DNA of 64,000 nt from NCBI GenBank assembly GCA_016191235.1, contig JACPOZ010000030.1, positions 3,924 to 67,923 of the forward strand. The letters run 5' to 3'. The notes beneath the pieces were generated by a model. The model was not told where the DNA came from and did no database searches. It saw only the letters and a program-made list of their open reading frames with translations. How positions within the stretch are numbered: the first letter of the stretch is position 1; each line of letters begins with the position of its first letter. Source of the DNA: Gammaproteobacteria bacterium. Lineage in GTDB: Bacteria; Pseudomonadota; Gammaproteobacteria; Ga0077554; Ga007554. Below, in pieces: positions 33,697 to 50,498 of this stretch. Made by a program: the position numbers and the translations under genes.

Positions 33697-33721
33697 CCCT
33701 CTCCCGCACGGCGGGAGAGGG
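33697..33721. repeat. REP-like hairpin (same 11-bp stem as 28901-28924)
   Basis: CCCTCTCCCGC-ACG-GCGGGAGAGGG directly after hisH. Confidence 0.45.
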
Positions 33722-33810
33722 AATAATTGATTACCTGATTGAAATGGAATAAGACACACTCTGCGAAATTTTGGGTAATAAATTTTTTCTGTCCCCGTGA
33801 GGAAGCTATC

Positions 33811-34545: not shown

Positions 34546-34546
34546 T

Positions 34547-35326
<780 letters not shown>

Positions 35327-35441
35327 TCAAAAGCCGCGTCCTGCCTGGGGCCGCTGGTATTGATTTCGCTGGGTTTCTCAAGAAAGGAATAGGGGTATCA
35401 CCCCCTTTTTACTTTTTTATTCGCGGGCTGAGGAGTAATAA

Positions 35442-36671
35442 ATGGCAGTCATCGAAGGATTTCGGGTGCAGAACTATCGCGCACTGCGCGATGTGACGCT
35501 GGGCAAGCTCTCCAACCAGCAAGCTGGGAAACCATTGACGCCTTTCACCGTGGTGATTGGCAAGAACGGCGTAGGCAAGAGCACCTTGTTCGATGCATTC
35601 GGATTCGTGGCGGACTGTTTGTCCGCCGATGTAGAAAGCGCCTGCGACATGAAGCAACGCGGTGGCTTCGATCGCCTTCGCTCGATGGGCGTGAATGAGC
35701 CCATCCGGTTTGAAATCTATTACCGCGAAGGGCCCAATGAACGGCCGATCACCTACGAGTTGGCGATTGCGCTAGATTCCTCGGGGCGGCCCTTTGTCGA
35801 ATCCGAGGTGCTCAAGCAGCGTCGTAAGGGCGAGAAGCGTGGTCGGCCTTATGCGTTCCTGCGCCTGGACCACGGCAAGGGAACGGTCTGGGCAGGTGAA
35901 GAAGCCCTAGAAGCCGAAGGTGGAGAGGATCGTGCCCAGACGCCAGTAGAACTGACCGATACCCGGCAACTCGGCATCGCCACCTTGGGTACGCTCAAGG
36001 AACATCCGCGCATCAAGCTGTTTCGAGACTTCCTCAAAGGCTGGTATCTGTCCTACTTCTACCCGGATGCGGCGCGTAGTCTGCCGAGCGCCGGCCCACA
36101 GCGGCATTTGAACATCCACGGCGACAACATTGGCAACGTGGTGCAGTTCATGGAGCGTGAGCACAAAGCGCGATTCAAGGCCATCCTCGAACGCATTGCG
36201 GCGAAGATTCCGGGGATTGCCAGTATCGACACGCAGGTGACTGAGGACAAGCGCGTGTTACTGCGTTTCAACGACGGCGCTTTTGGTGACCCATTCTTCG
36301 CCCAGCAGATGTCAGATGGCACGCTAAAAGTTTTTGCTTACCTGCTGTTGTTGGAAGACCCGGACCCACCACCGTTCATTTGCATCGAAGAGCCAGAGAA
36401 CGGCCTTTATCACAAGCTGTTGGAGGCGTTGGCCCAGGAGTTCCGTTTACATGCCACCGGCAAAAAGAATGCCCCGCAGATTTTCGTGACCACGCACCAG
36501 CCGTACTTTGTTGATGCGCTGGCGCCCGAGGAAGTGTGGATACTGGAGAAAGGAACGGATGGCTATTCCACTGTGCGTCGCGTCTCTGAGCTTGAAGACG
36601 TGAAAAACCTCGTGGCTGAAGGTTTGCCTTTGGGTGGTCTTTGGTACAGCGATTATCTCGATGAGAGATGA
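35442..36671 (+). CDS. ABC-type AAA ATPase (AAA_21/AAA_15-like, OLD/PARIS AriA-like) without a nuclease domain
   Basis: Walker A VVIGKNGVGKST, Q/signature-like QMSDGTLKVF, Walker B/D-loop FICIEEPENGLY and H-loop VTTHQP. GAGGAG RBS upstream. 4-nt overlap with the next gene. Confidence 0.8.
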   Translation: MAVIEGFRVQNYRALRDVTLGKLSNQQAGKPLTPFTVVIGKNGVGKSTLFDAFGFVADCLSADVESACDMKQRGGFDRLRSMGVNEPIRFEIYYREGPNERPITYELAIALDSSGRPFVESEVLKQRRKGEKRGRPYAFLRLDHGKGTVWAGEEALEAEGGEDRAQTPVELTDTRQLGIATLGTLKEHPRIKLFRDFLKGWYLSYFYPDAARSLPSAGPQRHLNIHGDNIGNVVQFMEREHKARFKAILERIAAKIPGIASIDTQVTEDKRVLLRFNDGAFGDPFFAQQMSDGTLKVFAYLLLLEDPDPPPFICIEEPENGLYHKLLEALAQEFRLHATGKKNAPQIFVTTHQPYFVDALAPEEVWILEKGTDGYSTVRRVSELEDVKNLVAEGLPLGGLWYSDYLDER

Positions 36672-37327
36672 GTATGCACATTGAGATATTGGTGGAGGAC
36701 AGTTCGGGGGAGAAGTTGCTGCAAGTATTGCTGCCTCAGTTTCTGGGGCTACAAGGCGAGCCACATACCTGGCGTTTACATGCCTACAAGGGCATCGGCC
36801 GAATTCCACCTGGCTTGGTGACGAAGGCCGATCCCTCGAAGCGGATTTTGCTTGACCAGCTGCCAAAGCTATTACGTGGTTATGGCAATACGCCCGGAAT
36901 AGATGCCGTTGTGGTCGTGCTCGATACTGACAAACGCGACTGCGCTGCATTTTTGGCCGAGCTGAAAGCGGCCGCCGATGTCTGCAATCCGGTGCCTAAC
37001 ACTCTGTTCAGACTCGCTATCGAGGAAATGGAAGCCTGGTATTTCGGCGACCAAGATGCTTTGTTGGCCGCCTATCCACGAGCCAAGCGGGATGTGCTCG
37101 GAAAGTATGTTCAGGACAGCGCATGTGATACATGGGAACTCCTCGCCGACGCAGTGCATTCGGGCGGGTCGGCAGCGATCAAGAAAGCTGGCTGGCCATT
37201 GCCGGGACAGGTGAAGCATGAATGGGCCGAAAAGATTGGTCCGTTGATGGACCCGAACCGGAATATCTCTCCGAGTTTTGGAAAGCTGAGGGATGGATTG
37301 CGCTGGCTCGTCGCAGAGGCGACTTAA
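36668..37327 (+). CDS. DUF4276-like protein with Toprim-like signature (candidate nuclease partner of the upstream ATPase)
   Basis: 219 aa. N-terminal HIEILVEDSSGE (conserved Glu) and VVVVLDTDKRD (DxD) resemble a Toprim catalytic core. The DUF4276 family assignment is from memory. Confidence 0.6.
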   Translation: MSMHIEILVEDSSGEKLLQVLLPQFLGLQGEPHTWRLHAYKGIGRIPPGLVTKADPSKRILLDQLPKLLRGYGNTPGIDAVVVVLDTDKRDCAAFLAELKAAADVCNPVPNTLFRLAIEEMEAWYFGDQDALLAAYPRAKRDVLGKYVQDSACDTWELLADAVHSGGSAAIKKAGWPLPGQVKHEWAEKIGPLMDPNRNISPSFGKLRDGLRWLVAEAT

Positions 37328-37391
37328 TGCGGGCAATCGGAATCCTTTAATGCTTTAATGAGAGAAAAAAGCGAAGAAAGGACTCCACCCC

Positions 37392-37423
37392 TTAACCCTC
37401 CCTCGACTTAACCCTCCCTCGAC
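37392..37423. repeat. perfect tandem duplication of a 16-bp unit
   Basis: TTAACCCTCCCTCGAC occurs twice in tandem, between the DUF4276 gene and the convergent S8 protease gene. Confidence 0.6.
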
Positions 37424-37537
37424 GCGTGTCCTCATCTCTGCTCTATCGCCCCACCCCAACGCGGCAGGCTGGATGAAGCCTACCGCGCGCCCTTGGCTTC
37501 CGTCGTCAGACGCAGGACGGGTTACTGTGCCGTGACA

Positions 37538-40069
37538 CTACTCGCTTCCACCTGCATAGTAGCGGATGGATTCGGAGTGTAGCCCCTGCGCCGTGAGCAC
37601 CAGCCGTGGCAGGTCGAGGCCGCATCCCGGGCGGAGGATGAGCTTGCCTCGGCCAACGCCGGCCCTCTGCACAGTGAATGTCTGCTGAACGTCCGGCACG
37701 ATGGCGAGGGAGAAAACCCCGTCCCTGTTGGTCATGGCCGATGCCTCCCGAGGTTGGAAAGCGGCTTTTCCAGGCGCGGCCAGCTTGGTGGATAGGCGTG
37801 CTCCGGCGACAGGGCGGCCATTGGCATCGACCACCTCGCCGAAGACGCGGCAGGGCCGTGGCACGTAGGTACGCACCGTGACGCCGCCGATCAGCCGCCG
37901 TTCTCCGTCTTTGGGCGTGGCATACACCGCCACGTTGCAATTCGCCTGGCGGCCGGGACGGGTGCCGACGGGGGCGTTGAAGGTAACCTTGATGTTCCGC
38001 GCGCAATCGGTGAACGGGTCCAGCGCGAAAGCGGCATCGCTGACCGTACAGCGCCAGCCGGGGTGGTCGGAAACCGCCTTGATCTCGAATCGCGCGGGCG
38101 TCATAAGCGAATTTTCGACACGGACATTGTATACCGATGGGCTGATCATGATATTGCGTTGCGTGACATTGTTGGTGTAATCCGCGTCGAGTCCATACGC
38201 GATCGAGATCTGGACACATTGATGGTCTGAAGATGCCGGCGTCCACGCCATGTTCTCGGTAACGGTATCGTGGGGATTGATGGTGATCTTTTTTGTGCCG
38301 AGAGGGTGGAATTGATTATTCCCGGCGGCAAAATTGTACACGCCGAAATTCACCAGGATCGTGACGGGGGTGTTGCCGGGATTTTCTATCTTGACGTTGA
38401 TCTGATTGGGGACGCCGGCCTTGGCCGGCGTGTTCGTCGTTATGTCGACCTGATTATTCCACGCCGGATCGTTGCTCTTGAGCGGGCAGGGCTGGCCCGC
38501 GGCGCCGCCACTCTGGCAGTTGGGAAAGCGCACATCGGTGGATTGCGCCATCGCACCTTGCAGCGCCGCGCCGACGTTCAACAAACCCCAGCCCAGCGCC
38601 GTGTCCCAATTGCCCGTCGTGGATGAATATGGAGTATTGCGCGAATTGTCGGCGAACATGATCAGCAACTGTTTCAGGCTGTCGGGCGACATGGCGGGGA
38701 ATTTCTGCAACACCAGGGCCGCGGCGCCCGATGTCATCGCCGCGGCGGGAGATGTTCCGGGAATTCCCATGAGCGTGGTGGTGCTCAGATTCTGTCCCGG
38801 CGCGGAGAGGTCGGGTTTCAGCGCCAGCAGGTTCGGCGACACGAAGCTGAAGTCCTTGCGCGGACCAATGAGATAGTTGCTCCAATGCGTGTCGTCGCTG
38901 CGTGTCACCGTGTTCTTGTCATCCGTGGCATTGACGCTGATGGCGAACGAGGCCGAGGCAGGCGGCTTGGTGATCCTGGCGCCTGGCGAAGACGCCGGGC
39001 ATGACGCCGTACCGTTATTGGCATTGGCGTAGGAGGCCACCACCACCAACCCCAGCGCCGAAAGATAATTGGCCTGCTGCGACAATGCGTCCGTGCCGTC
39101 ATCATCGACGCAGCGCGAGAAAGACAGGTTGACGACGCGAATCTTGAATTTCTGGGCATTGATGCCAACCCAGTCCACCGCCTTGGCGGTAAATGTCGAG
39201 TCGCAATTGTATTGACCGGAAGAAGTGGTCCCGCAACGGTTCACATCAATAAGACCTGCGGCTGGCGCAATCCCGGCACAATTGGCCGCGGGGCCGCCGC
39301 CGGGATTTCTGCACGTCTGGCCGGCAACACCTCGCCCCAGCGCCATCACGGCCATGGTGGTGCCATGATTGCCGACGTTGTCCGTTGGATTTCTTGATCC
39401 GTCTCCCGAATCAGTGCTGTCCCAGGCATCGTATCCGGCAACGAATGCCGAAGATGGGAGTGTATTCAAGGTGCCATCATTGACACCTGTATCGACGATG
39501 GCGATATTGATCCCGCTTCCGTTCAGGCCCATGTCCTGCGCCGACTGGTTCGGGTATTGGGCGCTGGCATGCGCTTGAATGGCGCGGGAGGCAACGTCCA
39601 GCTCCAGGGTTTCCGGTATCTGCCATTCGACCATCGCCACCTCGGGCCGCGCGGCAAGTGCCGGCAAGTCGGCAATTGGAACATCGTTGAGGAAGACGAA
39701 ACTGACCAGCTTGCCTACATAGGCTATCTTTCCGTATCTGGAAAAGATTTCCTGCACCTGCGCCGGAGGAATGCAACGGTTTAGTGCGAGAATGATATTC
39801 GTGCGATCTTTGGGGCCAAAGCGCGCCTCGATCTCGTCATCGATGAAGTTGCGGTTCTGGTCGCGAACCCAGGATAGATGCTTGCGCTGCCCGATCAGGG
39901 TGGGATTCGAGTGCGACGTCACAACTTTTTGCCAGGAAAGCGGCGTATATGCTGTTGCGTACAACGGCCCACACGTAAAAATAAACAGGAATGACGAGAA
40001 AGCGATAACGAACTTCCTTGTGAGTTGCTCTGTCTTCCCTGACACGTAAAAACCCAGCTGGATTTTCAT
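37538..40069 (-). CDS. secreted subtilisin-like serine protease (peptidase S8) with N-terminal propeptide and C-terminal accessory domains
   Basis: 843 aa with a signal peptide, catalytic triad motifs IAIVDTGV (Asp), HGTTMA (His) and GTSPAAAMTSGAAAL (Ser), and a C-terminal beta-sandwich region. Confidence 0.85.
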   Translation of the reverse strand: MKIQLGFYVSGKTEQLTRKFVIAFSSFLFIFTCGPLYATAYTPLSWQKVVTSHSNPTLIGQRKHLSWVRDQNRNFIDDEIEARFGPKDRTNIILALNRCIPPAQVQEIFSRYGKIAYVGKLVSFVFLNDVPIADLPALAARPEVAMVEWQIPETLELDVASRAIQAHASAQYPNQSAQDMGLNGSGINIAIVDTGVNDGTLNTLPSSAFVAGYDAWDSTDSGDGSRNPTDNVGNHGTTMAVMALGRGVAGQTCRNPGGGPAANCAGIAPAAGLIDVNRCGTTSSGQYNCDSTFTAKAVDWVGINAQKFKIRVVNLSFSRCVDDDGTDALSQQANYLSALGLVVVASYANANNGTASCPASSPGARITKPPASASFAISVNATDDKNTVTRSDDTHWSNYLIGPRKDFSFVSPNLLALKPDLSAPGQNLSTTTLMGIPGTSPAAAMTSGAAALVLQKFPAMSPDSLKQLLIMFADNSRNTPYSSTTGNWDTALGWGLLNVGAALQGAMAQSTDVRFPNCQSGGAAGQPCPLKSNDPAWNNQVDITTNTPAKAGVPNQINVKIENPGNTPVTILVNFGVYNFAAGNNQFHPLGTKKITINPHDTVTENMAWTPASSDHQCVQISIAYGLDADYTNNVTQRNIMISPSVYNVRVENSLMTPARFEIKAVSDHPGWRCTVSDAAFALDPFTDCARNIKVTFNAPVGTRPGRQANCNVAVYATPKDGERRLIGGVTVRTYVPRPCRVFGEVVDANGRPVAGARLSTKLAAPGKAAFQPREASAMTNRDGVFSLAIVPDVQQTFTVQRAGVGRGKLILRPGCGLDLPRLVLTAQGLHSESIRYYAGGSE

Positions 40070-40328
40070 GGTTCATCTCCCTGTAAGGGCAAAGAATTTG
40101 TTGTGTAGCTGCCACGACAAAATCATTGAACCACATCATGATCCAGGCATCTTTGACGCAGATCAAAAATACTCCGAATTAATATAAGACTTCCGCAAGA
40201 GCATGGCATCCTGGAAACCGGTAATGCATCCGACCTTGATATAGATCAAGGAAATATTCTGGCGAGCGTCTACTATCGTTTATCAGGCGGTAGTGGTGGG
40301 ACGTGTGATGCAGGGTACGGAGGCAGCC

Positions 40329-43300
40329 ATGATTAAGGTCACGGTAAGTTCCCGATTTTTCATCGGGAGTAAAAAGAAAAATATACTGGCGTTGTTGCTT
40401 CTCGCGATCAGCGCCCTGTGTTTTCCGATACTGGTGCCTGCGGCCCCTCCCAACGTCAACATTACCAATCATGCGGCGTGGCAAAATGAGCCGATGGTCG
40501 CGGTCAATCCCCAGGATCACGACAGGCTCGTGGTGGGATATAACGACAATCGCACTGGCAATGTGGCGGTCGGCTGGTCGTGGTCCGACAATGGCGGCGC
40601 CGTCTGGACTCACGGCGGCACCATTGCGCTGGCGGGTTATACGCGAAGCGCCGATCCCGTGGTGGCCTTCGACAGCGCGGGTACTGCCTACCTCGCCGGC
40701 CTGGCCTTCAATCCCGACAACACGCCGGGCAGCCTGGGCAGGGATGGCAGCATTTTCCTGGCCAAATCCAATGACGGCGGCCATACCTTCACCGTCTTCC
40801 AGAACATCGTCGCCGCCGGACAAGGCACGGCAAACCACCTCGACAAACCCTGGCTGTTCGTTAATCCCGCCAATAATCATGTGTATCTGGCCTGGACGCA
40901 GCGTGCCAACGCGTGGGGCGTGGGCGGGGCTGAGTCGATGACGATATGGTTCACGCGCTCTATCGATGGCGGCGTCACTTTCTCCCCGCCGCTTCAGGTC
41001 AGCACCTTCAATCCCCCAACCGGCGCTTCGCGCTCGTTTGGGCCGCAAATCGCAATCGGAGCGAACGATCGCATCTATGTTGCATGGCATACCCTGGAGA
41101 ATGGCAATCCGGGCGATGCAAATTGGGTCGCTCCCAGGCTGTGGATCGCCGAATCCATCGATGGTGGCGTGAGCTTCGGCGCCAACCAGCAGGTTGCCAG
41201 CCAGCTGTTCGGCAAGCCAAATAAATTCATCAGCATGGGCGCGGACCCGGCCAGTGGCAGGATTTACATTGCCTACGCCGACAGGCCCGCTTGGCCGGGC
41301 GATTATGACATCTATGTGGCAAGCGCCGCCGCGGCTGCCGGACCGTGGGCGGTAACGCGCATCAGCGATGACCCGGTGGGCAGCGGCAGGGCACAGTTCT
41401 GGCCAAGCCTGGACGTAGCACCTAACGGTCGGGTGGATGTAATCTGGTATGACAACCGGGACGATGCCGTGACTAACAAATTGAGCGTCTATTACACTGC
41501 CTCGATCGATGGCGGAATGACGTGGGCCGTCAATACCCGCATCACGGATGTCGTGCCAGGTTTCACGCCGACGCAGGATTTCGCGGGCGACTACCACTCC
41601 GTCGCCTCCGTCAACGATAAGGCTTACGCCGTGTGGATGGATAACCGGCTGGGCAATCAGGAAATCTTTGGCACCAACATCTCGCAGGAGGCGGTGGACG
41701 CCATGCTGGTGCTGGATATCTCTGGCAGCATGCTGTCGCCGGGTTGTCCCAATTGCGCGCCCAAGCTCGACGCGCTGAAGGATGCAGTGGAGATCTTCGT
41801 GCAGTTATGGAACAGCCTGGCCGTGGCCGAGCCGCAGCACCGGCTGGGGGTGACCTATTTCAGAACCAACGTGAACGAATTCAATATCGGTGGCGAGGCC
41901 CTGTTGCCAATCGGACCTGGTAACAACAACGCCCAGGCTATCATTGCCGATGTCGACAGCCAGACGACTGTTCCCATGAATCTGACGGCAATGGGAGGCG
42001 GACTGCAATCCGCCATCAACCGTCTCACCGGCATGAGTCCACGCCGCATCATCCTGTTCACCGACGGTATGCAGAACGTCAATCCAATGGCGCTGCCGCA
42101 GGGCGCTGCGCTGAAAATCGACACCGATCCCGCCACTTCTAACACCTCCAATATCAGTCCCACCACACCACCCACCGTGCTGGACCAGCAGTTGGGGCGC
42201 AGGATCAACACCATCGGCGTGGGCGCCACGCCGCAATTCGTGACGCTGCTGCAGAGCATCGCCAATAACACGGGCGGGAGAAGTTACACGACCATGGCGC
42301 CCGATGCTAACCTGCGCCGCTTCTTCGTGGAGCAACTGGTGGATGCCCTGCGCGGCGCCAGCCCGCAATTGATCGACTACCGTGTTCACAATCTGACCGC
42401 CGACCGGGTTTTCGAAGTCTTCAGCGTCGATCGTTCGGCGAAAAAAATCATTTTCAAGCTGAGCTGGAAGCGTGGCGAACCACCACTGGCGATTGAGCAG
42501 ATCGAAAAAGACGGCGTCAACCTCATCGCCCATGCCAGGCTGACCAGCGGCGACTTCTACCGCATCTATGCCTTTGATCTGCCGCTCGCGGTGCAGAATG
42601 CACGGATCGGGCCTGAGGGAGACTGGCGCCTGCAAATCTATGGCATCAAGGGCGCGCGCTACGAAGTTGCGGCGCTCGCTGACGAGAAAAGGCTCGATTA
42701 CGCCTTTGAGATTCACAAGGGGCTGAGCAAGGTGGGAGAGCCGCTCCGATTGACGGCTCGCCTCGCTGTGGACGGCAGGCCGCTGTCCGATGCCAATCTG
42801 GTGGCCGCCCAGGTCTTCAAGCCCGGAACCAGCGTTGGAACGGCCCTTTCGATAACACCTACTCCTGCATGGATCAGCGCTGCGGCGCCAGTCGCGGCCG
42901 GCCATCAATCCGAGCCGGGAACGAGTCCTGCCCAGCAGAAACTGCAAACTTTGCTGCAACAGGAGGGGTTCTGGAAACGTGTTCAACCCGCCGACGGAGC
43001 GCTGGTGCTGGCCAGCCAGGGGAATGGCATTTATACCGCAATCTATGACGATACCAGCATCCCCGGCGCCTATACCGTGGTGTTTCGCGTCAGCGGCACG
43101 GATGAGGATATCGGCGCGTATACCCGCACCGAAACACGTGTGGCGACGGTGCAGTTCGGCAAGGCGAATCTGGATGCCTCAGATATGCGCGTGGTGAGCA
43201 AGGACGTGATGGGTTATGCCACCCTCATCAAGATCCAACTCCGCCCCCGTGACGCACGCGGCAATTATCTTGGGCCTGACTATGGGCAGCGGATCAAAGT

Positions 43301-43889
43301 ATCCACCGCGACGGGAAACATCGAGCCGGGTTTCCGTGATCTGCTGGACGGACGATATGAGTATGCTCTAACTGTGCCCACCGGCTCCGACCCCGAGATT
43401 CGCGTGGCGGTGATGGATGAGCCCCTCTACGCCGGACCGCTCTCGCGAGTGAGCGAGGGCGCTTCCTATCGCTTTGCCCTCAGCGCCCACCTGGGCTGGG
43501 GTGTGCCTTTGGGCAACTTCAACAATCAATACGATGCGGGAATGCTGGGCGAGCTGGATTTCGAGTATCGGCCTTCGCCACGCTATTCGCTCAACGCCGT
43601 GCTTGGCCGCTACCGCTTCGACCCTGATTTCGACATCACGGGTGGTACACTTTACCTGCGGGGCTATCAACCGCTCACGCCACAGATGGAAGGGTATGTC
43701 GAGGCAGGTTTGGGCGCCTATCGCCCCGAGTCCTTGAGCAGGAGGGGCGGGATAAGTCTCGGTGCCGGCGTGAGCCACGCCCTGGCTCCAAGGCTTCGCG
43801 GTGAGCTCGGCGCCGATTATTTCCATCTGTTTGGCGGAGGTGATATTGATTTCATCGGTGTTAAGGCGGGCCTGCGTTGGTTGTTTTGA
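40329..43889 (+). CDS. large exported BNR/Asp-box repeat + von Willebrand factor A + C-terminal outer-membrane beta-barrel protein
   Basis: GGAGG RBS and ATG at 40329 (the ORF track starts earlier at 40293). Signal peptide ILALLLLAISALCFPILVPA. Five SxDxGxTW-type Asp-boxes (SWSDNGGAVW, SNDGGHTF, SIDGGVTF, SIDGGVSF, SIDGGMTW). VWA MIDAS motif LVLDISGSM. The C-terminus has alternating hydrophobic beta-strand periodicity and ends in AGLRWLF (OMP-type terminal Phe). Confidence 0.7.
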   Translation: MIKVTVSSRFFIGSKKKNILALLLLAISALCFPILVPAAPPNVNITNHAAWQNEPMVAVNPQDHDRLVVGYNDNRTGNVAVGWSWSDNGGAVWTHGGTIALAGYTRSADPVVAFDSAGTAYLAGLAFNPDNTPGSLGRDGSIFLAKSNDGGHTFTVFQNIVAAGQGTANHLDKPWLFVNPANNHVYLAWTQRANAWGVGGAESMTIWFTRSIDGGVTFSPPLQVSTFNPPTGASRSFGPQIAIGANDRIYVAWHTLENGNPGDANWVAPRLWIAESIDGGVSFGANQQVASQLFGKPNKFISMGADPASGRIYIAYADRPAWPGDYDIYVASAAAAAGPWAVTRISDDPVGSGRAQFWPSLDVAPNGRVDVIWYDNRDDAVTNKLSVYYTASIDGGMTWAVNTRITDVVPGFTPTQDFAGDYHSVASVNDKAYAVWMDNRLGNQEIFGTNISQEAVDAMLVLDISGSMLSPGCPNCAPKLDALKDAVEIFVQLWNSLAVAEPQHRLGVTYFRTNVNEFNIGGEALLPIGPGNNNAQAIIADVDSQTTVPMNLTAMGGGLQSAINRLTGMSPRRIILFTDGMQNVNPMALPQGAALKIDTDPATSNTSNISPTTPPTVLDQQLGRRINTIGVGATPQFVTLLQSIANNTGGRSYTTMAPDANLRRFFVEQLVDALRGASPQLIDYRVHNLTADRVFEVFSVDRSAKKIIFKLSWKRGEPPLAIEQIEKDGVNLIAHARLTSGDFYRIYAFDLPLAVQNARIGPEGDWRLQIYGIKGARYEVAALADEKRLDYAFEIHKGLSKVGEPLRLTARLAVDGRPLSDANLVAAQVFKPGTSVGTALSITPTPAWISAAAPVAAGHQSEPGTSPAQQKLQTLLQQEGFWKRVQPADGALVLASQGNGIYTAIYDDTSIPGAYTVVFRVSGTDEDIGAYTRTETRVATVQFGKANLDASDMRVVSKDVMGYATLIKIQLRPRDARGNYLGPDYGQRIKVSTATGNIEPGFRDLLDGRYEYALTVPTGSDPEIRVAVMDEPLYAGPLSRVSEGASYRFALSAHLGWGVPLGNFNNQYDAGMLGELDFEYRPSPRYSLNAVLGRYRFDPDFDITGGTLYLRGYQPLTPQMEGYVEAGLGAYRPESLSRRGGISLGAGVSHALAPRLRGELGADYFHLFGGGDIDFIGVKAGLRWLF

Positions 43890-43910
43890 CACAACATCAG
43901 GAGAGCGATT

Positions 43911-44681
43911 ATGACATCCATGCGCTATGTGAAAAGCTGGTTATCCTTGATGACTCTGGTGAGCGTAACGCTCGCCCTTGCGGCGTGCGCAACGACATAC
44001 AAGGCTCAGCCGCTGCCGTTTCGTCTGCCTTCCTCCTATCCCAATGCCACCGTGGTGGCGGGGGCGACGCTGGGCGCCGAGGCCTATGTGGACAAGGATC
44101 AGGCGGGGAACGCCTTTGGTTTCGACGTGCGCGGCGCGGGGCTGTTGCCGGTGCAGGTGGTTTTCGATAACAAGGGTACGCACCCGCTGGTGATCAATCC
44201 CGGTCAAACCTTCTTGGTGGACAACGAAGGCAAGCTCTGGCCGGTGTTGGAAGAACGCTTTGCTTACGAGCGTGTCACCAAGTATGCACAGACCAAAAAG
44301 ATCTTCAGCGAGGGGGCTTACAGCGGCTTTCTCGGCGGTGTGGCGGGTGGCTTGATCGGTGCTGCGGTCGGCGTGGTCAGCGGTGAGGATGTGGCCAGCG
44401 CCGCAGGCAAGGGTGCGGCGGCGGGCGCGGCCGCCGGTGCCGTGCTGGGAGGGGCCAGCGGCGCGGCCAGTGCGGGCGAGGCCCGTGACCGGGTGATGGA
44501 CGATTTCAGGGCCAAGTCGTTGCAGAACAAATCAGTGAAGCCGGGTGACATCGCCTACGGTTTCATGTTCTTTCCCGGCGAGGTCATGTCGGCCAAAGTG
44601 TTGCGCCTTCAGCTCATGGAAAAGGATACCAACACCGTTCACACGCTGGAAATACCGCTGTCCGTCGGCAATGCGAAGTAG
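43911..44681 (+). CDS. lipoprotein with glycine-zipper segment, function unknown
   Basis: Lipobox LALAAC and a Gly/Ala-rich zipper GFLGGVAGGLIGAAVGVVSG...GAAAGAAAGAVLGGASGAASAG. Lies 21 bp downstream of the BNR/VWA gene, so likely co-transcribed. Confidence 0.6.
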   Translation: MTSMRYVKSWLSLMTLVSVTLALAACATTYKAQPLPFRLPSSYPNATVVAGATLGAEAYVDKDQAGNAFGFDVRGAGLLPVQVVFDNKGTHPLVINPGQTFLVDNEGKLWPVLEERFAYERVTKYAQTKKIFSEGAYSGFLGGVAGGLIGAAVGVVSGEDVASAAGKGAAAGAAAGAVLGGASGAASAGEARDRVMDDFRAKSLQNKSVKPGDIAYGFMFFPGEVMSAKVLRLQLMEKDTNTVHTLEIPLSVGNAK

Positions 44682-44932
44682 GGGCGAATTTCAAACTCAC
44701 CTCGTCAAGAAGCGATGGAATGTTTGGAGATTATCACTACACTCGATGTGGATGCCATCGTCAATGCCGCCAACCCAGCAAAAGAAGCAGCAAAAAGCAG
44801 CAAAAGGGTCGCAGCCCTTTAATCTGAACGGCGGTGTGCGCTCTACCCCGAATGCTTCATACATTCGGGGTAGTTTCGCCTAATGAACAGCCTGGTCACA
44901 TGAGGCTAATGATAGAAAAAAGTAAAAAAAGG

Positions 44933-46148
44933 CTCTGACCCGAATGGCACTTACTTAAGCTTCGTAGGGTGTCCATTTTTCCGAATGTTCTCCCTGGCGA
45001 CAGGTCGTGGCTTGGTGAGCAAAGGATAGGGTTTCGGTCGTCGCTTGATGGCGCGAGGTTCAATGCGCCCCAGGCGGTTCCCGACGCGCTGTTGGGCGAT
45101 CAGGGCAAACAGGTCTGCGAGGGTGTCTGCGTTACCGGCGCCCATTCCTCTTTGGTTCCACGCCAACCAGAGCTGAAGGGTGTGCTTGAAACTAAATTCG
45201 CGCGGTAGCCTATCGGTCAACAAAGCGGACTGAGCCATCAGGAGCCGAATCAGGTTATAGGCCAACAGATGCACCCAGATTTCCTTCTCAGCCATCGCTG
45301 GGGTTTTGCAACTCAGCATTTCCATGCCCAGCGTGGTTTTGATGTGGCGCAGATCCAGTTCTATGTGCCATCGGCTTCGATAGAGTATTTTCAGGGCCGC
45401 TTTGGGTGTTTGGTTCGGGTTCAATAGCGTCGTTACCAGGACCTTGCCGCCGGTATACAGCTCCCGTACCGTCAGCGTGTCCGGGGCGTGATCGTAGTCC
45501 GATTGCGCCATCCAGCCGGGCTTGGTCTGCGGCTTGGCGATCGTGATCAGATGATCACGTGATCCCAACCGCCGGCCACGCCGAAAGTCGGTGCGGCGCT
45601 TGCGTGCCCCCAGTTGTTCGAACACCGCATCCACACCGCGTGATTGCAAGTCGGACAGCAGAAAATAGGTCGCGTAATAGGCATCCCCCAGCAGGATGTC
45701 TCCGGCATTCAGAGTGTCGAGCACCGACCGCAGCAAAGATTGTTCATCGCCGCCCTTGCCTTGGTAGCGACCGATCGCCGCGTTGAGTACCGCACCGCTG
45801 CCGAGGCACACGATGCCTACCATGCGGCACAGCGGGAAACCCGCCCCCGGCTTTTGGCTGCGCGATCGACAACGTCTCCGTGGGCGGAAACAGCCTCTCC
45901 AGGTGATCGAGCCATTCGGCGCTGGTGAGAAGGTTGAAGAACGCGTAGGAATCGGTGTTGGCGGCGTGATGCCGAATACGGCGCTGTTGATGTGCGCGAG
46001 CGCTGGGAGTACGATGCATAAAGACTGGCTCCTTGTGATATCGGTGGTAGTTTGGCAACACCAACCTTATCACTTAAGCCAGCCTTTTTGTATATTAAAA
46101 TCAATGTGTTATTCGTTAAGTAAGCGCCATTCGGGTCAGACCCCTTTA
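44933..46148. mobile_element. degenerate IS4-family insertion sequence (internally deleted), about 26-bp terminal inverted repeats
   Basis: Inverted repeats GCTCTGACCCGAATGGCACTTACTTAA (44933-44959) and TTAAGTAAGCGCCATTCGGGTCAGACC (46122-46148). A transposase reading frame is disrupted inside. Confidence 0.7.
44951..46073 (-). pseudogene. IS4-family DDE transposase, internal deletion/frameshift
   Basis: The N-terminal 70 aa (MHRTPSARAHQQRRIRHHAANTDSYAFFNLLTSAEWLDHLERLFPPTETLS) are in one frame. The C-terminal 290 aa (GFPLCRMVGIV...LLGDAYY...YRSRWHIELDLRHIKTTLGMEML) are in another. About 100 codons between them appear to be missing. Confidence 0.7.
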
Positions 46149-46211
46149 TACCCTCAACTGGCTGTTCTGCTGGGCCGAGCTTGGTGCAAAAGTAACCGGT
46201 CAAACCAAGCA

Positions 46212-46355
46212 AGATATAAATCAGGCGCCAACCACCATCACCCCATCCATCTCCACCGCCGCGCCCCTAGGCAAAGCCGCCACGCCGATGGCAGCACGGG
46301 CGGGATAGGGTTCCTGGAAATAGCCCGCCATCACCTGATTGACCACCGGGAAGTG
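46212..46355 (-). pseudogene. RidA/YjgF-family gene remnant (C-terminal about 45 codons only)
   Basis: [50 protein letters not shown] matches the RidA C-terminus. No upstream RidA sequence is present. Confidence 0.5.
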
Positions 46356-46496
46356 GGCAAGATCAGTAAGGTTCCTTGAAAAATTAAGACCTGTTTCCCC
46401 GTGATCACCGTGAAAGTGACAATGATGGAATAATGTTTGGTGTTTGAAGCGATTTATTTGCGTAATGCCGCAAGATGCAAGTATCTTCGCTCCACT

Positions 46497-47468
46497 TTAT
46501 AACCGCCACCCCCAAAACTCAAGAAACCGCGCAAATTCCCACATATCCGAAGCCGTGCGGTTCCACGGTTTCAGGCTGGTGTAAAATACTGTGCCGGTCT
46601 CGCGGCTATCGCCAAGCTCTTTATCCGATCCAATGTGCGGGTCCAGCGCCCACCAACTCATCAGCAGGACTTCAAACGGCTTGATGGCCCCTTTGACGTA
46701 ACCTTTGCGGAAGCCTTGCGTTTCATAAAACGATGTCATGGTGTGGCTATCCAGCGGCAGCTTTTTCAGTACTGCCATTGGCTCGATGGGGGTTGGAATG
46801 ATGTTGTAGGTGTTGTCCTGCGCCCCGATCTTCACATCCATCACGCGGTGCGTGGCGTCCCTCAGGAGCACCACAGGCCGCTGGTCCGCGCCGGAAGATG
46901 CCGGGTAATCGAGCCTTGCGGGCAGTGTTTCACCATAGATAGACTGGGGTTGTGCAAAATCCCATCCCTGGGGATAAGCATCATCTGGTAAATAACGCGT
47001 GGGGATGACGGCGAGATAGCAGCCACAGGTATGGACGGTTGTTACCAGCACTGGCTCTTCTTTTTGATTAAGGGTGATGATGACAAACAACCCGGAATTT
47101 TTTCCGGCGGTCAGGTGAAAATACGGCACACCCTGAAAATGCACACGGTAAATCAGGTTGGTGTAGTTGCCTTTGCTGGTCTGGAACGTCTGCTGCTGGG
47201 CATACATCACCGGCACCGCAGGGTCGACATAGATCTGTTCGCGGCCCTGCGCGTCATAGCGGCCGGAGGGACGGCCGATCTTGTTGTAGGTTTTGTAATG
47301 ATGCTGCGGCACAAAGACCGGGGCATGGCGCGCGAACAGGCCACCGTCGTCTTTCGCCACATAGGCCACTGGCGGTTGCCCGGTGAGGGGGCGGGTGCTT
47401 GCGCAGGAGGCGAGCAGCATGGCCAAGGCCAGTGCGCCGAGAATCCTGACTAATGTGTGCCTTGGCAT
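46497..47468 (-). CDS. lipoprotein of unknown function
   Basis: 323 aa with signal peptide and lipobox LLASCAS. No recognisable catalytic motifs. Confidence 0.55.
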   Translation of the reverse strand: MPRHTLVRILGALALAMLLASCASTRPLTGQPPVAYVAKDDGGLFARHAPVFVPQHHYKTYNKIGRPSGRYDAQGREQIYVDPAVPVMYAQQQTFQTSKGNYTNLIYRVHFQGVPYFHLTAGKNSGLFVIITLNQKEEPVLVTTVHTCGCYLAVIPTRYLPDDAYPQGWDFAQPQSIYGETLPARLDYPASSGADQRPVVLLRDATHRVMDVKIGAQDNTYNIIPTPIEPMAVLKKLPLDSHTMTSFYETQGFRKGYVKGAIKPFEVLLMSWWALDPHIGSDKELGDSRETGTVFYTSLKPWNRTASDMWEFARFLEFWGWRL

Positions 47469-47502
47469 GTTCTCACCTCATCGAATTAAGAGTCGATGTT
47501 AC

Positions 47503-47905
47503 GCACCGTCCACGAAAAACACAAAAGGCACATAAAATCTTCATAGCACAACCCGCTCGACTGTTGCTTTCGGATAGCAGCCTCAAGAAAACCACAACAA
47601 GCATGGCGTGCGCTATGCGCACGAATTACCGAAAAGACAACACAGTATGCGTCATTGGGCAATCCGCCATACAGGAAAGAGCGCAAGTAAAGTTCTGCAA
47701 GTGCCGTGGGCGTATGGATGCGGATGAGCGGTCACACATACCTCCCTTCTATATTTTTTCATTACAGCCACCATTTTTCGTGCGCACAGCGCACGCTACA
47801 CTTGCTGCTCCAAGAGCTGTTTTCGGCCGCTGCTCCCGGCGCGGCTCTACCTCCTCTTGCTAACCGTCCAAAAAAGCGGTCAACTGCCGTTTTTAAGATA
47901 ATATG
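47503..47905. repeat. composite repeat region carrying one terminus of repeat family A and one of family B
   Basis: 47505-47535 CCGTCCACGAAAAACACAAAAGGCACATAAAA matches the family-A terminus at 55320-55347 (reverse complement). 47878-47905 GTCAACTGCCGTTTTTAAGATAATATG matches the family-B terminus at 53952-53977. The internal segment is similar to 53870-53910. Confidence 0.4.
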
Positions 47906-47960
47906 CCTGCCACGCAAAATTCCCCTGTCAATCGAAATCCTGCGTGATCATCACGTGAAT

Positions 47961-50498
47961 TTACGAAACATTCGGTCTAGGTTTCCGGCGTGCCGTAGGT
48001 TCGGCATTCCATGGGTCATCCGGCCAGGGGTGTTTGGGATAGCGGCCTTTGAGTTCTTTTTTGACTTCGGCGTAGGTGCGTTCCCAGAAGCCGCGCAGGT
48101 CTTGTGTTACCTGGATGGGACGTTGTGCCGGGGAGAGCAGGTGCAGGGTTACCGGCACCCGTCCCCAAGCCACGCGCGGCGTGTCGGCGAGGCCGAACAT
48201 TTCTTGCAGCTTCACCGCCAGCACCGGCGATTCGCCGGGGGTATATTGCAGACGCAGCCGTGATCCGCTGGGCACGGTGAGGTGGGTGGGCGCGCCTTCG
48301 TCGAGGCGGGTGCGCTGCGTCCAGTCCAGCGTGTTTTGCAGTATTGCCAGCAGGTCGATGCGGGTCAGATGATCGCGGCGGGTGATGCCGTCGAGGTATG
48401 GCTCCAGCCAGTCTTCCAGTGTTGTTTCCAGATGTGCGTCGCTCACATCCGGCCAGCCCTCCTCTGGGCACCAGTGACGCAACGATAGCACGCGCGCTTG
48501 CCATTCCCTGGCCTCGTGTGTCCAGGGCAATGCCTCCAGCCCGAGACGGCGCACGCCTTCAAGCATGGCCTTGCGTAACGCATCTGGGCTAGCTTTTGTC
48601 AGCGGTTGGCTGGCGAGCACGAGTTCTCCAAGCCGTTCTTCGCGCCGCGAGATGATGGCCCGCTGCTGGCTGTCCCAGCGCACCACGTCCTGCGTTTGTA
48701 TTCGTCCCGCGAGATGTTTGCGCAAAGCCTGCACGGTGACTGGCGCGGCGAGGTAGATTATGGCTTCGGTTTTTCCCGCATCCATCTGCGCGGCCACCAG
48801 GTAGGTGTGCTTGATCAGATGATCCTCACACGCCAGGCGCGCGCCACGGCCATTGGCGAGCAGGTAGCGTCCGGTGTTGGCTTCGCGCTGTGCGGCGATG
48901 CGGTCTGGATAGGCGAGGGCTAATAGCAGGCCAACCTCTTCGTCGCTGGCGCTCGCTGCAGGTTGTTTGATATTTAGCAGTCGCCGCCACTGGCTGGCCG
49001 CTTGTTCGATGCGTTCACAGGCGTAAGGGTCGGCCTCATAGGATTGCGCACCGGCCCTGCCGCGCTTGCGGAATGCCATTATCGCCTCGACGCGCTCCAG
49101 CAGGTCGCAGGTGCGTTTACGACTCTGGTTGTCGCTGGTGAGAATGTCGCGTTCGGCAAGCAGCGCCGAGATATCGCAGGCCAGCACGCCCAATCCCAGC
49201 TTGTTGCCCTCCAGCAGCAGGTGCGCGAGGCGTGGGTGCGCGGGCAACGCAGCCATTGCCTGGCCGGCGGGGGTGATCAATCCCTTGTCGTCCAGTGCGC
49301 CCAGTTCGATGAGCAATTGCCGCGCCTGGGCCAGCGCGCCGGGCGGGGGTGGGTCCAGCCACGCCAGATCCACCGCATTACGCACCCCCCATTGAGCCAG
49401 GTCCAGTGCCAGCGGGGCGAGGTCGGCGGCGAGTATCTCCGGTATGGTCTGGGCTTGCAGGCCGCGCTGGGTGGATTCGCTCCATAGCCGGTAGCAATGC
49501 CCCGGCCTGAGACGTCCGGCGCGTCCGGCGCGCTGTTCAGCGGACGCACGCGACACGCGCACCGTGTCGAGCCTCGTTAGACCGCTGTTCGGGTCAAAAC
49601 GCGGTACGCGCGCGAAACCGCTATCCACTACGCTGACGATACCCTCGATAGTCAGGCTGGTTTCGGCGATGGAGGTGGCCAGCACCACTTTGCGCCGCCC
49701 ACTGGAATCAGGCCGGATCGCCCGGTCCTGCGCCTCTTTTGGCAGGTCGCCATAGAGGGGATGGATGCGGACCTCTGCGCAGGCGGGATCGGCCTCCAAT
49801 AAGCGCTGTGTGCGCTGGATCTCGCCACCGCCGGGAAGAAAGGCCAGCACGTCGCCTTGTTGTTCGTTTAAGGCACGGCGCACCGCAGCGGCCACGGTCT
49901 CGGGCGTTCTGCTTTCTGGATCGCGCGGCAGGTAGCTGACAGCCACCGGAAAGCTGCGCCCCATGCTGGTGATAATTGGCGCATTATCGAGCAGTCTGGC
50001 GACGCCTTCGGTATCCAGCGTGGCCGACATCACCAGCACCTTCAAATCGTCGCGCAGGCCGCGCTGGCTGTCGATGCACAGTGCCAGCGCGAGATCGGCG
50101 TTGAGATTGCGCTCGTGAAACTCATCGAAGATCACCAGCCCTACCCCCTCCAGCCCCGGATCGCTTTGCAGGCGGCGGGTGAGGATACCCTCGGTTAGCA
50201 CCTCGATGCGCGTCTGGCGCGAAATCTGGCTGTCGAAACGGATGCGGTAACCGACTGTCTGTCCCACCTTCTCGCCCAACAGATCCGCCATGCGCGCCGC
50301 CGCCGCCCGCGCCGCAAGACGACGTGGCTCCAGCATCACGATCGAACGGCCTTGCAGCCAGGGTTCATCCAGGAGCGCCAACGGTACCAGCGTGGTTTTG
50401 CCCGCACCGGGCGGGGCTTGCAGCACGACTGCGGGATGGGCGGCGAGCGCCGTGCACAGCTCGGGAAGGGTTGCTTCGATAGGCAAGGAGGCGGGCAT
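47961..50498 (-). CDS. hrpB: ATP-dependent RNA helicase HrpB (DEAH-box)
   Basis: 845 aa with Walker A APPGAGKTT, DEFH box (VIFDEFHERN) and the HrpB C-terminal domain. Confidence 0.9.
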   Translation of the reverse strand: MPASLPIEATLPELCTALAAHPAVVLQAPPGAGKTTLVPLALLDEPWLQGRSIVMLEPRRLAARAAAARMADLLGEKVGQTVGYRIRFDSQISRQTRIEVLTEGILTRRLQSDPGLEGVGLVIFDEFHERNLNADLALALCIDSQRGLRDDLKVLVMSATLDTEGVARLLDNAPIITSMGRSFPVAVSYLPRDPESRTPETVAAAVRRALNEQQGDVLAFLPGGGEIQRTQRLLEADPACAEVRIHPLYGDLPKEAQDRAIRPDSSGRRKVVLATSIAETSLTIEGIVSVVDSGFARVPRFDPNSGLTRLDTVRVSRASAEQRAGRAGRLRPGHCYRLWSESTQRGLQAQTIPEILAADLAPLALDLAQWGVRNAVDLAWLDPPPPGALAQARQLLIELGALDDKGLITPAGQAMAALPAHPRLAHLLLEGNKLGLGVLACDISALLAERDILTSDNQSRKRTCDLLERVEAIMAFRKRGRAGAQSYEADPYACERIEQAASQWRRLLNIKQPAASASDEEVGLLLALAYPDRIAAQREANTGRYLLANGRGARLACEDHLIKHTYLVAAQMDAGKTEAIIYLAAPVTVQALRKHLAGRIQTQDVVRWDSQQRAIISRREERLGELVLASQPLTKASPDALRKAMLEGVRRLGLEALPWTHEAREWQARVLSLRHWCPEEGWPDVSDAHLETTLEDWLEPYLDGITRRDHLTRIDLLAILQNTLDWTQRTRLDEGAPTHLTVPSGSRLRLQYTPGESPVLAVKLQEMFGLADTPRVAWGRVPVTLHLLSPAQRPIQVTQDLRGFWERTYAEVKKELKGRYPKHPWPDDPWNAEPTARRKPRPNVS

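What the first reader, a model, noticed from the sequence alone, without database searches (positions are those of the whole stretch)
35330..47500. About 12 kb accessory insertion truncating the his operon after hisF
hisGDCBHAF are contiguous, but hisI/hisE are absent. Between hisF and hrpB lies a mosaic: the defence-like pair, a convergent secreted S8 subtilase, a 1187-aa BNR/VWA/beta-barrel surface protein plus a glycine-zipper lipoprotein, a macro-domain gene stub, a decayed IS4-family element, a ridA tail and another lipoprotein. The density of remnants and repeats suggests repeated insertion and deletion at this site.
Basis: inference. Interest (0 to 1): 0.6.

Follow-up and report, generated by a model that had tools for sequence, protein, structure and literature searches.

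The report
Species-specific gene patch after hisF
The histidine operon of this uncultured gammaproteobacterium already ended at hisF in its ancestors, and the roughly 10.7 kb that follows is an ordinary species-specific patchwork (a candidate anti-phage gene pair, a secreted protease, a large surface protein, a broken insertion sequence), not an insertion that cut the operon.

Summary
The reading "a 12 kb insertion truncated the his operon" does not hold. Four congeneric or sister lineages (HisF 91-98% identical) share mla-bolA-murA-hisGDCBHAF, and all of them end the operon at hisF. Each has a different right-hand neighbour. Homology stops within about 85 bp of the hisF stop codon, and one congener shares the terminator. 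So the loss of hisIE is ancestral, and hisF marks the edge of a synteny block in a heavily rearranged genus. hrpB likewise has different neighbours on both sides in two congeners. The lineage-specific segment is 35411-46154 (~10.7 kb). It holds a PADLOC HEC-01 pair (ABC ATPase + TOPRIM-like DUF4276), a secreted S8 protease, a 1198-aa protein (propeller, VWA, 8-strand barrel) with a lipoprotein, a doubtful macro stub, and an IS4 copy. The IS4 copy has intact inverted repeats, an internal ~0.3 kb deletion and no target duplication. It sits exactly where homology to the hrpB block begins. The ridA tail and the second lipoprotein belong to that conserved hrpB block. Composition is not foreign. This is ordinary genome plasticity and of low interest.

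The parts
29014..35326 (+). hisG-hisD-hisC-hisB-hisH-hisA-hisF, the conserved left block (continues upstream to murA, bolA and the mla genes)
   Evidence: Pfam hits. 90-94% nt identity and collinear with congeners L081, L082 and L086. dN/dS is 0.01-0.18.
35391..35418 (+). hisF terminator-like hairpin (GGGGTATCACCCC) followed by a T-run. This is the end of the ancestral block.
   Evidence: Terminator scan. The spacer 35327-~35410 aligns with congener L081 only.
35442..36671 (+). HEC-01A-like ABC (AAA_21) ATPase, a candidate defence gene
   Evidence: Pfam AAA_21 2.6e-41. PADLOC HEC-01A 6.5e-193. Homologues at 63-66% identity on plasmids and 64% on IMG/VR viral contigs.
36668..37327 (+). HEC-01B-like DUF4276 (TOPRIM-like) partner; its start overlaps the ATPase gene by 4 bp
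   Evidence: Pfam DUF4276 1.3e-8. PADLOC HEC-01B 1.2e-93.
37538..40069 (-). Secreted S8 subtilase (843 aa) with a C-terminal CarboxypepD_reg-like domain, convergent with the HEC-01 pair
   Evidence: Pfam Peptidase_S8 1.2e-30. Its 3' end is present next to HEC-01B in an independent 99.6%-identical contig, L101.
40293..43889 (+). 1198-aa predicted outer-membrane-anchored surface protein: sialidase-like six-bladed propeller, VWA domain, beta-sandwiches and a C-terminal 8-strand beta-barrel
   Evidence: Pfam VWA_2/BNR_2. AlphaFold model with pLDDT 78.9 and an 8-strand C-terminus. Foldseek hits to sialidase/GH93 propellers at E 1e-10. Nearest non-identical homologue is 59% identical.
43911..44681 (+). 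256-aa lipoprotein with a glycine-rich (glycine-zipper-like) segment, 21 bp downstream of the 1198-aa gene
   Evidence: Lipobox LALAAC and a G/A-rich stretch in the translation. No Pfam family.
44715..44780 (+). Possible macro-domain N-terminal stub (EIITTLDVDAIVNAANP); weak evidence
   Evidence: The only PDB matches are YmdB-type macro proteins, at E 1.3. No Pfam hit.
44927..46147 (-). Defective IS4-family element. It has 32-nt terminal inverted repeats. The transposase has lost about 95 codons internally and is split across two frames (45849-45989 and 44954-45856). No target-site duplication was found.
   Evidence: Inverted repeats. NF033592 at 132.6 bits against a cut-off of 115. Comparison with a 460-aa Pseudomonas veronii transposase in a 1514-bp IS. 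Flanks read.
46221..46370 (-). ridA pseudogene: only the last 49 codons remain. A 267-bp deletion removed codons 1-87.
   Evidence: 100% identical to residues 88-136 of RidA in L094. Deletion junction at 46370|46371.
46497..47468 (-). 323-aa lipoprotein. It is part of the conserved hrpB block, not cargo.
   Evidence: 98.5% aa identity and syntenic with L094 (gloB-mltD-hrpB-orf323-ridA).
47548..47941 (.). 394 bp of extra intergenic DNA where L094 has 19 bp; it carries REP/MITE-like repeats also found elsewhere in the window
   Evidence: blastn gap. Repeat families D3, D9 and I1.
47961..50498 (-). hrpB, the first intact gene of the right-hand conserved block (hrpB-mltD-gloB-methyltransferase-rnhA-dnaQ)
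   Evidence: Pfam HrpB_C 2.2e-56. 94.6% nt identity to L094 over 47942-53886.

Best explanation
The position just after hisF is the edge of a conserved synteny block in a genus whose chromosomes are heavily rearranged. It is not the scar of a recent insertion.

Proposed order of events:
1. hisIE (with tatABC in outgroups) was separated from hisGDCBHAF in a common ancestor of this genus and its sister lineage. hisF kept its own terminator. hisIE is inferred to be encoded elsewhere.
2. In the window's species, the DNA beyond the terminator was assembled piecemeal from unrelated modules. First comes a mobile-element-associated candidate defence pair (HEC-01-like ABC ATPase plus TOPRIM-like nuclease). 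Next is a secreted S8 protease. Then comes a horizontally acquired, outer-membrane-anchored propeller-VWA protein with its lipoprotein.
3. This patch is joined to an unrelated conserved block (ridA-lipoprotein-hrpB-mltD-gloB) through an IS4 copy that has no target duplication. That points to IS-associated recombination or deletion.
4. Later decay followed: an internal deletion in the IS and a 267-bp deletion in ridA.

Status of the steps:
- Shown: gene identities, boundaries, ancestral truncation, remnants, and the species-level fixation of the arrangement.
- Inferred: the order of events, the role of the IS, and hisIE being elsewhere.
For: Ancestral truncation:
- Congeners L081, L082 and L086 (HisF 97-98% aa) and sister lineage L090 (91% aa) all carry mla-bolA-murA-hisGDCBHAF without hisIE.
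- They have four different right-hand neighbourhoods: plsY/folBK/bio genes; PAP2/PRK/sulfite reductase; DUF3562/Big_5/nifUS; GGDEF-EAL.
- Nucleotide homology to the window ends at 35328-35330 in L082 and L086, and at about 35410, after a shared terminator, in L081.

Outgroups:
- Outgroups at 74-82% HisF identity have hisF-hisI-hisE-tat.
- All 13 of the 80 loci that carry an upstream hisD (11 of them also hisG) have hisI adjacent.

Operon still functional:
- dN/dS of hisG through hisF is 0.01-0.18, even against L090 at dS about 0.8.

Right-hand block:
- L094 carries gloB-mltD-hrpB-orf323-intact ridA. Homology to the window starts at 46155, a few bases from the right IS repeat at 46147.
- The IS lacks a target duplication and lacks about 95 transposase codons.
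- hrpB has different neighbours on both sides in two congeners.

Not an assembly artefact:
- Independent contigs reproduce the junctions. L101 is 99.6% identical over 34156-37854. L100 is 100% identical over 38617-46353.

Cargo:
- Homologues lie on plasmids and viral contigs.
- The 1198-aa gene has no close homologue in congeners.
Against: - No relative with an empty site, and no complete genome, was available. The sequence of events and the role of the IS are therefore inferences.
- hisIE was not located in any genome of the clade.
- Composition of the patch is not foreign. This fits old or intragenomic origin as well as horizontal transfer.
- Only two loci (hisF and hrpB) support the claim of genus-wide scrambling.
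- All relatives are metagenome-assembled genomes or metagenome contigs.
Confidence: 0.75

Rival explanations
1. One reading: a single ~12 kb genomic island inserted between hisF and hisI in this genome, cutting the operon and displacing or deleting hisIE.
For: - hisIE follows hisF directly in outgroups.
- The region contains mobile-type genes: a HEC-01 pair and an IS4 copy.
- Other lineages do carry genes inserted between hisF and hisI (L019 and L020).
Against: - hisIE is absent from the whole window, including the far side of the region.
- Four related lineages that lack this DNA also lack hisIE after hisF.
- The terminator after hisF is shared with a congener.
- There is no integrase, tRNA, att-like direct repeat or compositional shift.
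- The right 1.4 kb is conserved flank.
Confidence: 0.04
2. The 3' end of hisF is a true site-specific hotspot. A sequence or structure just after the stop codon, such as the terminator hairpin, is repeatedly targeted by mobile elements or recombinases. That would explain why five lineages differ exactly there.
For: - There are five different right-hand neighbours, with breakpoints nested within about 85 bp of the stop codon.
- A candidate defence pair sits directly behind the terminator.
- Insertions between hisF and hisI occur in other lineages.
Against: - In congeners the right-hand neighbours are core metabolic genes (bio, fol, sulfite reduction, nif-type Fe-S assembly), not cargo.
- hrpB shows the same behaviour on both of its sides, so the effect is not specific to hisF.
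- No recombinase or conserved att-like motif was found.
- Selection against disrupting hisF by itself explains breakpoints clustering just past the stop codon.
Confidence: 0.15
3. The junctions are metagenome assembly chimeras, and hisF is not really adjacent to this DNA.
For: - The window comes from a metagenome-assembled genome.
- The exact HisF protein is not on record in the gene-position index.
Against: - An independent JGI contig (L101, 99.6% identical) spans hisA-hisF-HEC-01-S8 3' end.
- A Logan contig (L100, 100% identical) spans S8 through the IS to the ridA tail.
- L094 covers the ridA tail through gloB.
- The only stretch not covered lies inside the intact S8 reading frame.
Confidence: 0.03

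Closest known systems
Split (sub-operon) organisation of his genes in Proteobacteria, e.g. hisBHAF separate from hisIE(-tatABC) in Pseudomonadales and Halomonadaceae
   Same: - hisIE is not linked to hisF.
- About half of the 80 sampled gammaproteobacterial and betaproteobacterial loci lack hisI after hisF.
- Variable his organisation (compact operons, sub-operons, scattered genes) is well documented (PMC10138114).
   Different: - Here the upstream part remains a complete murA-hisGDCBHAF unit.
- In all 13 sampled loci with an upstream hisD (11 also with hisG), hisI is adjacent. This clade is therefore a derived exception among its nearest sampled relatives.
- The P. aeruginosa hisIE-tatABC linkage is from my own knowledge and was not tested.
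HEC-01 candidate defence system (PADLOC; Payne et al., bioRxiv 10.1101/2024.01.29.577857), in the ABC-ATPase + TOPRIM class that includes OLD, Gabija and PARIS
   Same: - It is a two-gene operon of an ABC-type ATPase (Pfam AAA_21) and a DUF4276/TOPRIM-like protein.
- Both genes make full-length, very strong HMM matches.
- Homologues occur on plasmids and viral contigs.
   Different: - It is not embedded in an Hma (Hachiman-type) locus here. It sits behind a housekeeping operon.
- The describing paper detected no phage protection for HEC-01, so a defence function is unproven for the family and untested here.
IS4-family insertion sequences
   Same: - It has a DDE transposase above the NCBIfam cut-off.
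- It has 25-32-nt terminal inverted repeats similar to those of a 1514-bp relative on a Pseudomonas veronii plasmid.
   Different: - It is about 1.22 kb long.
- About 95 transposase codons are deleted internally and the reading frame is split.
- No target-site duplication is present.
- It is therefore non-autonomous, and its two flanks were probably not contiguous originally.
Defence islands and variable-region hotspots flanked by core genes
   Same: - A core-gene flank is followed by variable cargo that includes a defence candidate and IS debris.
- The content differs between close relatives.
   Different: - Only one candidate defence system is present.
- Most of the cargo is not defence-related.
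- Only one flank is conserved across the genus.
- In relatives the 'cargo' is core metabolism, which points to chromosomal rearrangement rather than island turnover.
Surface proteins anchored by a C-terminal 8-strand OmpA/OmpX-like barrel, with VWA and enzyme 'head' domains
   Same: - The model predicts a signal helix, a propeller head, a VWA domain, Ig-like sandwiches and an 8-strand barrel ending in an aromatic residue.
- The head resembles sialidase/GH93 propellers.
   Different: - No curated family covers the C-terminal ~600 residues.
- Homologues share the VWA-to-barrel scaffold (48% identity) but carry an S8 peptidase head instead.
- Catalytic activity and membrane insertion are untested.

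Membership tests
Horizontally acquired genomic island (single insertion) | Presence/absence polymorphism with an identifiable empty site in close relatives | tested here: not met
   Relatives lack this DNA at hisF but have other genes there, not the far flank. No hisF-to-ridA/hrpB or hisF-hisIE empty site was found.
Horizontally acquired genomic island (single insertion) | Compositional deviation from the host genome | tested here: not met
   GC content is 0.55-0.61. Tetranucleotide distance is 13.6-17.1 against a window mean of 16.0 +/- 2.2.
Horizontally acquired genomic island (single insertion) | Integrase or recombinase, a tRNA/att target, and flanking direct repeats | tested here: not met
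   No tRNA in the window. No integrase among the Pfam hits. No flanking direct repeats. The only mobility gene is a defective IS4 copy.
Complete his operon (hisGDCBHAFIE) | hisI and hisE (or a fused hisIE) contiguous with hisF | tested here: not met
   tblastn with four outgroup HisI/HisE proteins found nothing in the window.
HEC-01 (PADLOC candidate defence system) | HEC-01A ABC ATPase and HEC-01B TOPRIM-like protein encoded side by side | tested here: met
   E 6.5e-193 over profile positions 1-402 of 406, and E 1.2e-93 over positions 1-210 of 213. The two genes overlap by 4 bp.
HEC-01 (PADLOC candidate defence system) | Protection against phage infection | not testable with these tools
   The describing preprint found no protection against the phages it tested.
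IS4 family insertion sequence | DDE transposase of the IS4 family | tested here: met
   NF033592 at 132.6 bits against a cut-off of 115. Pfam DDE_Tnp_1 at 2.2e-18.
IS4 family insertion sequence | Terminal inverted repeats | tested here: met
   32-nt repeats, 91% complementary, at 44927-44958 and 46116-46147. They resemble those of the P. veronii relative.
IS4 family insertion sequence | Intact transposase and a target-site duplication (an autonomous, simply inserted copy) | tested here: not met
   Residues 66-160 are missing and the frame shifts. The sequences flanking the repeats are unrelated.
Macro domain (YmdB-like) gene remnant | Significant similarity to the macro domain | tested here: inconclusive
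   A 16-residue motif matches YmdB at 13 of 16 positions, but at E 1.3. There is no Pfam hit.
RidA (Ribonuc_L-PSP) gene | Full-length reading frame | tested here: not met
   Only residues 88-136 remain. A 267-bp deletion is seen relative to L094.

The most novel reading that the evidence does not exclude
This uncultured gammaproteobacterial genus has an unusually high rate of chromosomal rearrangement at only about 8-10% nucleotide divergence. Breakpoints hug the ends of conserved genes and operons. hisF has five different right-hand neighbours in five lineages, and hrpB has different neighbours on both sides. Defective IS copies and REP/MITE-like repeats may drive this. On this reading the hisF 3' junction is a species-diagnostic, recurrently reused breakpoint where defence candidates and surface-protein genes can lodge.
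Probability: 0.35. Interest if true: 0.35.

Novelty: new member of a known kind. Interest (0 to 1): 0.15.

Why it matters
The practical value is as a correction. An operon that looks truncated next to mobile-looking genes invites the reading that an insertion broke the pathway. Comparison with relatives shows that the truncation is old, that the seven his genes are under strong purifying selection, and that the adjacent DNA is later patchwork.

It also gives three smaller results:
- another natural context for the untested HEC-01 candidate defence pair;
- a rare surface-protein scaffold whose enzymatic head domain is swapped between homologues;
- a hint that this environmental genus has unusually fluid gene order.

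None of this changes current understanding.

Tried and rejected
- **Exact-protein look-ups.** Look-ups of the window's HisF and of the 100%-identical database entry P0002 found nothing on record. The source assembly could not be retrieved.
- **Genome-collection scan with HisF.** Close relatives had to be reached through the protein search and contig look-ups.
- **Metagenome scan with the 1198-aa protein.** It gave only 27-29% identical propeller matches.
- **Link between the adjacent S8 gene and the 1198-aa protein.** The S8 protein does not specifically resemble the S8 head of the fused homologue P0244. Neither S8 nor the lipoprotein accompanies homologues of the 1198-aa gene. The idea that the three genes form one conserved module was dropped.
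- **Relation to the IS4-like element in congener L081.** It is only distantly related to the window's IS (29% over 86 residues), so no shared active IS was shown.
- **Rfam.** No RNA family is present in the window.
- **Direct repeats flanking the HEC-01 pair.** None were found.
- **Locating hisIE in the congeners.** This was not possible.


Full report
**What is in the sequence**

The window has about 58% GC and carries no tRNA gene. The left-hand genes run mlaC, a STAS-domain gene, bolA, murA (27457-28716) and then hisG, D, C, B, H, A and F (29014-35326). All are on the + strand and all have strong Pfam support.

After hisF come the following features:
- A terminator-like hairpin at 35391-35406, followed by a T-run.
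- An AAA_21 ATPase gene (35442-36671). It overlaps a DUF4276 gene (36668-37327) by 4 bp.
- A convergent S8 subtilase gene (37538-40069, minus strand).
- A divergent 1198-aa gene (40293-43889), followed 21 bp later by a 256-aa lipoprotein gene (43911-44681).
- About 250 bp containing a macro-like motif.
- An IS4-family element (44927-46147).
- A ridA fragment (46224-46370, minus strand).
- A 323-aa lipoprotein gene (46497-47468, minus strand).
- hrpB (47961-50498, minus strand), then mltD, gloB, a methyltransferase gene, rnhA and dnaQ.

tblastn with HisI, HisE, TatB and TatC from four outgroups found nothing in the 64 kb. The best E-value was 0.14.

**Is the operon truncated by this DNA?**

Eighty loci from species-representative genomes have HisF 73-82% identical to the window's. 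In the nearest of them hisF is followed directly by hisI, hisE and tatBC. All 13 loci that carry an upstream hisD (11 of them also hisG) have hisI adjacent. The absence of hisIE here is therefore a derived state.

A protein search found much closer relatives, with HisF 91-100% identical. Their contigs give the following picture:
- GCA_040183005.1 (L081), GCA_022842345.1 (L082, plus three independent metagenome contigs) and GCA_021731145.1 (L086, plus three Logan contigs) have HisF 97-98% identical.
- GCA_033717875.1 (L090) has HisF 91% identical.
- All four share mlaED-OEP-mlaC-STAS-bolA-murA-hisGDCBHAF, and all four lack hisIE after hisF.
- What follows hisF differs in each:
  - L081: plsY, folB, folK and bio genes.
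  - L082: PAP2, PRK, PAPS reductase and sulfite reductase.
  - L086: DUF3562, a Big_5 protein, a transposase fragment and nifU/S-type genes.
  - L090: a GAF-GGDEF-EAL protein.

At the nucleotide level the window is 90-94% identical to the three congeners up to 35328-35330 (L082, L086). For L081 identity continues to about 35410, through the terminator region.

The seven his genes show dN/dS of 0.01-0.18 in every comparison. This includes L090, where dS is about 0.8. The operon has therefore been maintained by selection long after hisIE left it. By inference, hisIE is encoded elsewhere.

The truncation is ancestral to the clade and cannot have been caused by the present cargo.

**The right-hand boundary**

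HrpB relatives were found with a second protein search.

The closest contig is L094 (Logan run SRR22388024). It carries gloB, mltD, hrpB, a 323-aa gene, an intact 136-aa ridA and then an unrelated 507-aa gene. The window matches it as follows:
- 47942-53886 at 94.6% identity.
- 46371-47547 at 98.2% identity.
- 46155-46370 at 98.6% identity.
- A 267-bp deletion removes ridA codons 1-87; the junction is at 46370|46371.
- The window has 394 extra bp (47548-47941) where L094 has 19 bp.

The ridA tail and the second lipoprotein therefore belong to the conserved hrpB block. The lineage-specific segment is 35411-46154, about 10.7 kb.

In two congeners (L091 and L093) hrpB is about 90% identical at the nucleotide level, but its neighbours differ on both sides. 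Gene order in this genus is evidently fluid in general, not only at hisF.

**The insertion sequence at the seam**

The element has 32-nt inverted repeats, 91% complementary, at 44927-44958 and 46116-46147. Its transposase is IS4-family, with NF033592 scoring above the curated cut-off.

I compared it with a 460-aa transposase in a 1514-bp IS on a Pseudomonas veronii plasmid. The window copy matches residues 11-65 in one frame and 161-460 in another. About 95 codons have been lost internally.

The sequences flanking the repeats show no target-site duplication. Homology to the hrpB block starts 8 bp beyond the right repeat. I infer from this that the IS took part in joining two formerly separate regions and then decayed. 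That step is inferred, not shown.

A 12-nt perfect hairpin at 44843-44873 resembles the core of the IS repeat. It may be debris from an earlier event.

The macro stub rests on a 16-residue motif. It has non-significant matches to YmdB-type proteins (E 1.3) and no Pfam hit.

**The cargo**

*The AAA_21/DUF4276 pair.* The two genes match PADLOC HEC-01A and HEC-01B over their full lengths, at E 6.5e-193 and 1.2e-93. The describing preprint characterises HEC-01 as an ABC ATPase plus a TOPRIM-like protein with an OLD-like metal site. It detected no protection against the phages it tested. Homologues at 63-66% identity lie on Pseudomonas and Rahnella plasmids. Others lie at 64% on two IMG/VR viral contigs and at 50% on a phage contig.

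*The 1198-aa protein.* It was modelled with 26 homologues, giving a mean pLDDT of 78.9. The model shows:
- a signal helix;
- a six-bladed propeller, which matches sialidase/GH93 folds in Foldseek at E about 1e-10 and TM about 0.6 on the target;
- a VWA domain;
- beta-sandwich domains;
- a confident 8-strand C-terminal barrel.

Apart from an identical copy, its best homologue among 5.8 billion proteins is 59% identical and comes from an unrelated organism with other neighbours. The sequenced congeners therefore lack it. Homologues share the VWA-to-barrel scaffold at 48% identity but carry an S8 peptidase head in place of the propeller.

*No shared module.* The adjacent S8 gene is not specifically related to that head. 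It does not co-occur with homologues of the 1198-aa gene. I therefore treat the S8 gene, the surface protein and the lipoprotein as neighbours, not as a demonstrated module.

**Artefact and composition checks**

Independent assemblies reproduce the junctions:
- L101 (JGI 3300038435) is 99.6% identical over 34156-37854, covering hisA through the S8 3' end.
- L100 (Logan SRR12113392) is 100% identical over 38617-46353, covering S8 through the ridA tail.

GC content and tetranucleotide distance of the segment lie within one standard deviation of the window mean. The type I restriction-modification island at 12-22 kb deviates more. No Rfam family was found in the window.

**Verdict**

- The DNA after hisF is species-specific and bears remnants of insertion and deletion.
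- It is a composite sitting at an ancestral operon end and synteny breakpoint. It is not a 12-kb insertion that truncated the his operon.
- Variable his gene organisation, with sub-operons and scattered genes, is well known in Proteobacteria (PMC10138114).

This is ordinary genome plasticity with a few minor curiosities.

Two things were not resolved: where hisIE lies in this clade, and whether any relative has an empty site.

Noticed in passing
window 12213-22184 (minus strand): A type I restriction-modification island: a YgjP-like metallopeptidase, HsdR, a Fic protein, HsdS, a 207-aa protein with a weak IS200-type Y1 transposase match, and an HsdM fused to a DUF1016 N-terminal domain. It has the most deviant tetranucleotide composition in the window.
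   Followed up: partly
window 56388-58247 (+): A 619-aa protein made almost entirely of ankyrin repeats (at least 12 repeats, Pfam Ank_2 at 2.3e-89). It has an N-terminal hydrophobic segment.
   Followed up: no
window 60387-61497 (+): An Xre/ParS-type antitoxin and RES-domain toxin pair, next to a SpoVR-like gene (62280-63779).
   Followed up: no
window 11841-11869, 47495-47566, 55193-55352, 32114-32211, 56225-56364, 62095-62280: Families of short REP/MITE-like intergenic repeats (e.g. TCCACGAAAAACACGAAAG) and palindromic elements, including one between hisC and hisB. Nucleotide homology to congeners drops out precisely in the his intergenic spacers.
   Followed up: partly
window 47961-50498; loci L091 and L093: hrpB is about 90% identical at the nucleotide level in two congeners, but its neighbours differ on both sides. 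This suggests unusually fluid gene order in this genus.
   Followed up: partly
window 40293-43889; proteins P0244, P0260, P0266, P0268: The C-terminal scaffold (VWA domain, beta-sandwiches, 8-strand barrel) recurs in a rare protein family. In this family the N-terminal head is either a sialidase-like propeller or an S8 peptidase. No curated family covers the scaffold.
   Followed up: partly
window 37391-37422: A perfect tandem duplication of a 16-nt unit (CTTAACCCTCCCTCGA) in the spacer between the DUF4276 gene and the S8 gene.
   Followed up: no
window 44843-44873: A perfect 12-nt hairpin (CTACCCCGAATG...CATTCGGGGTAG) whose arms resemble the core of the IS4 terminal repeat. It may be debris of an earlier IS end.
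   Followed up: no
locus L081 1536-2702: A congener carries a different IS4-like element (DUF4372 + DDE_Tnp_1, 388 aa) inserted between the STAS gene and bolA, inside the otherwise conserved mla-his block.
   Followed up: partly
loci L019 and L020: In two more distant lineages, extra genes sit between hisF and hisI (hisI starts 1827 and 1377 bp after hisF). The hisF-hisI junction has therefore been opened independently elsewhere.
   Followed up: no
protein P0001: A 384-aa HisF-like protein on a 3.2-kb ENA contig scores higher than the self-hit (657 against 559 bits). It may be a hisA'-hisF fusion or a frame error.
   Followed up: no
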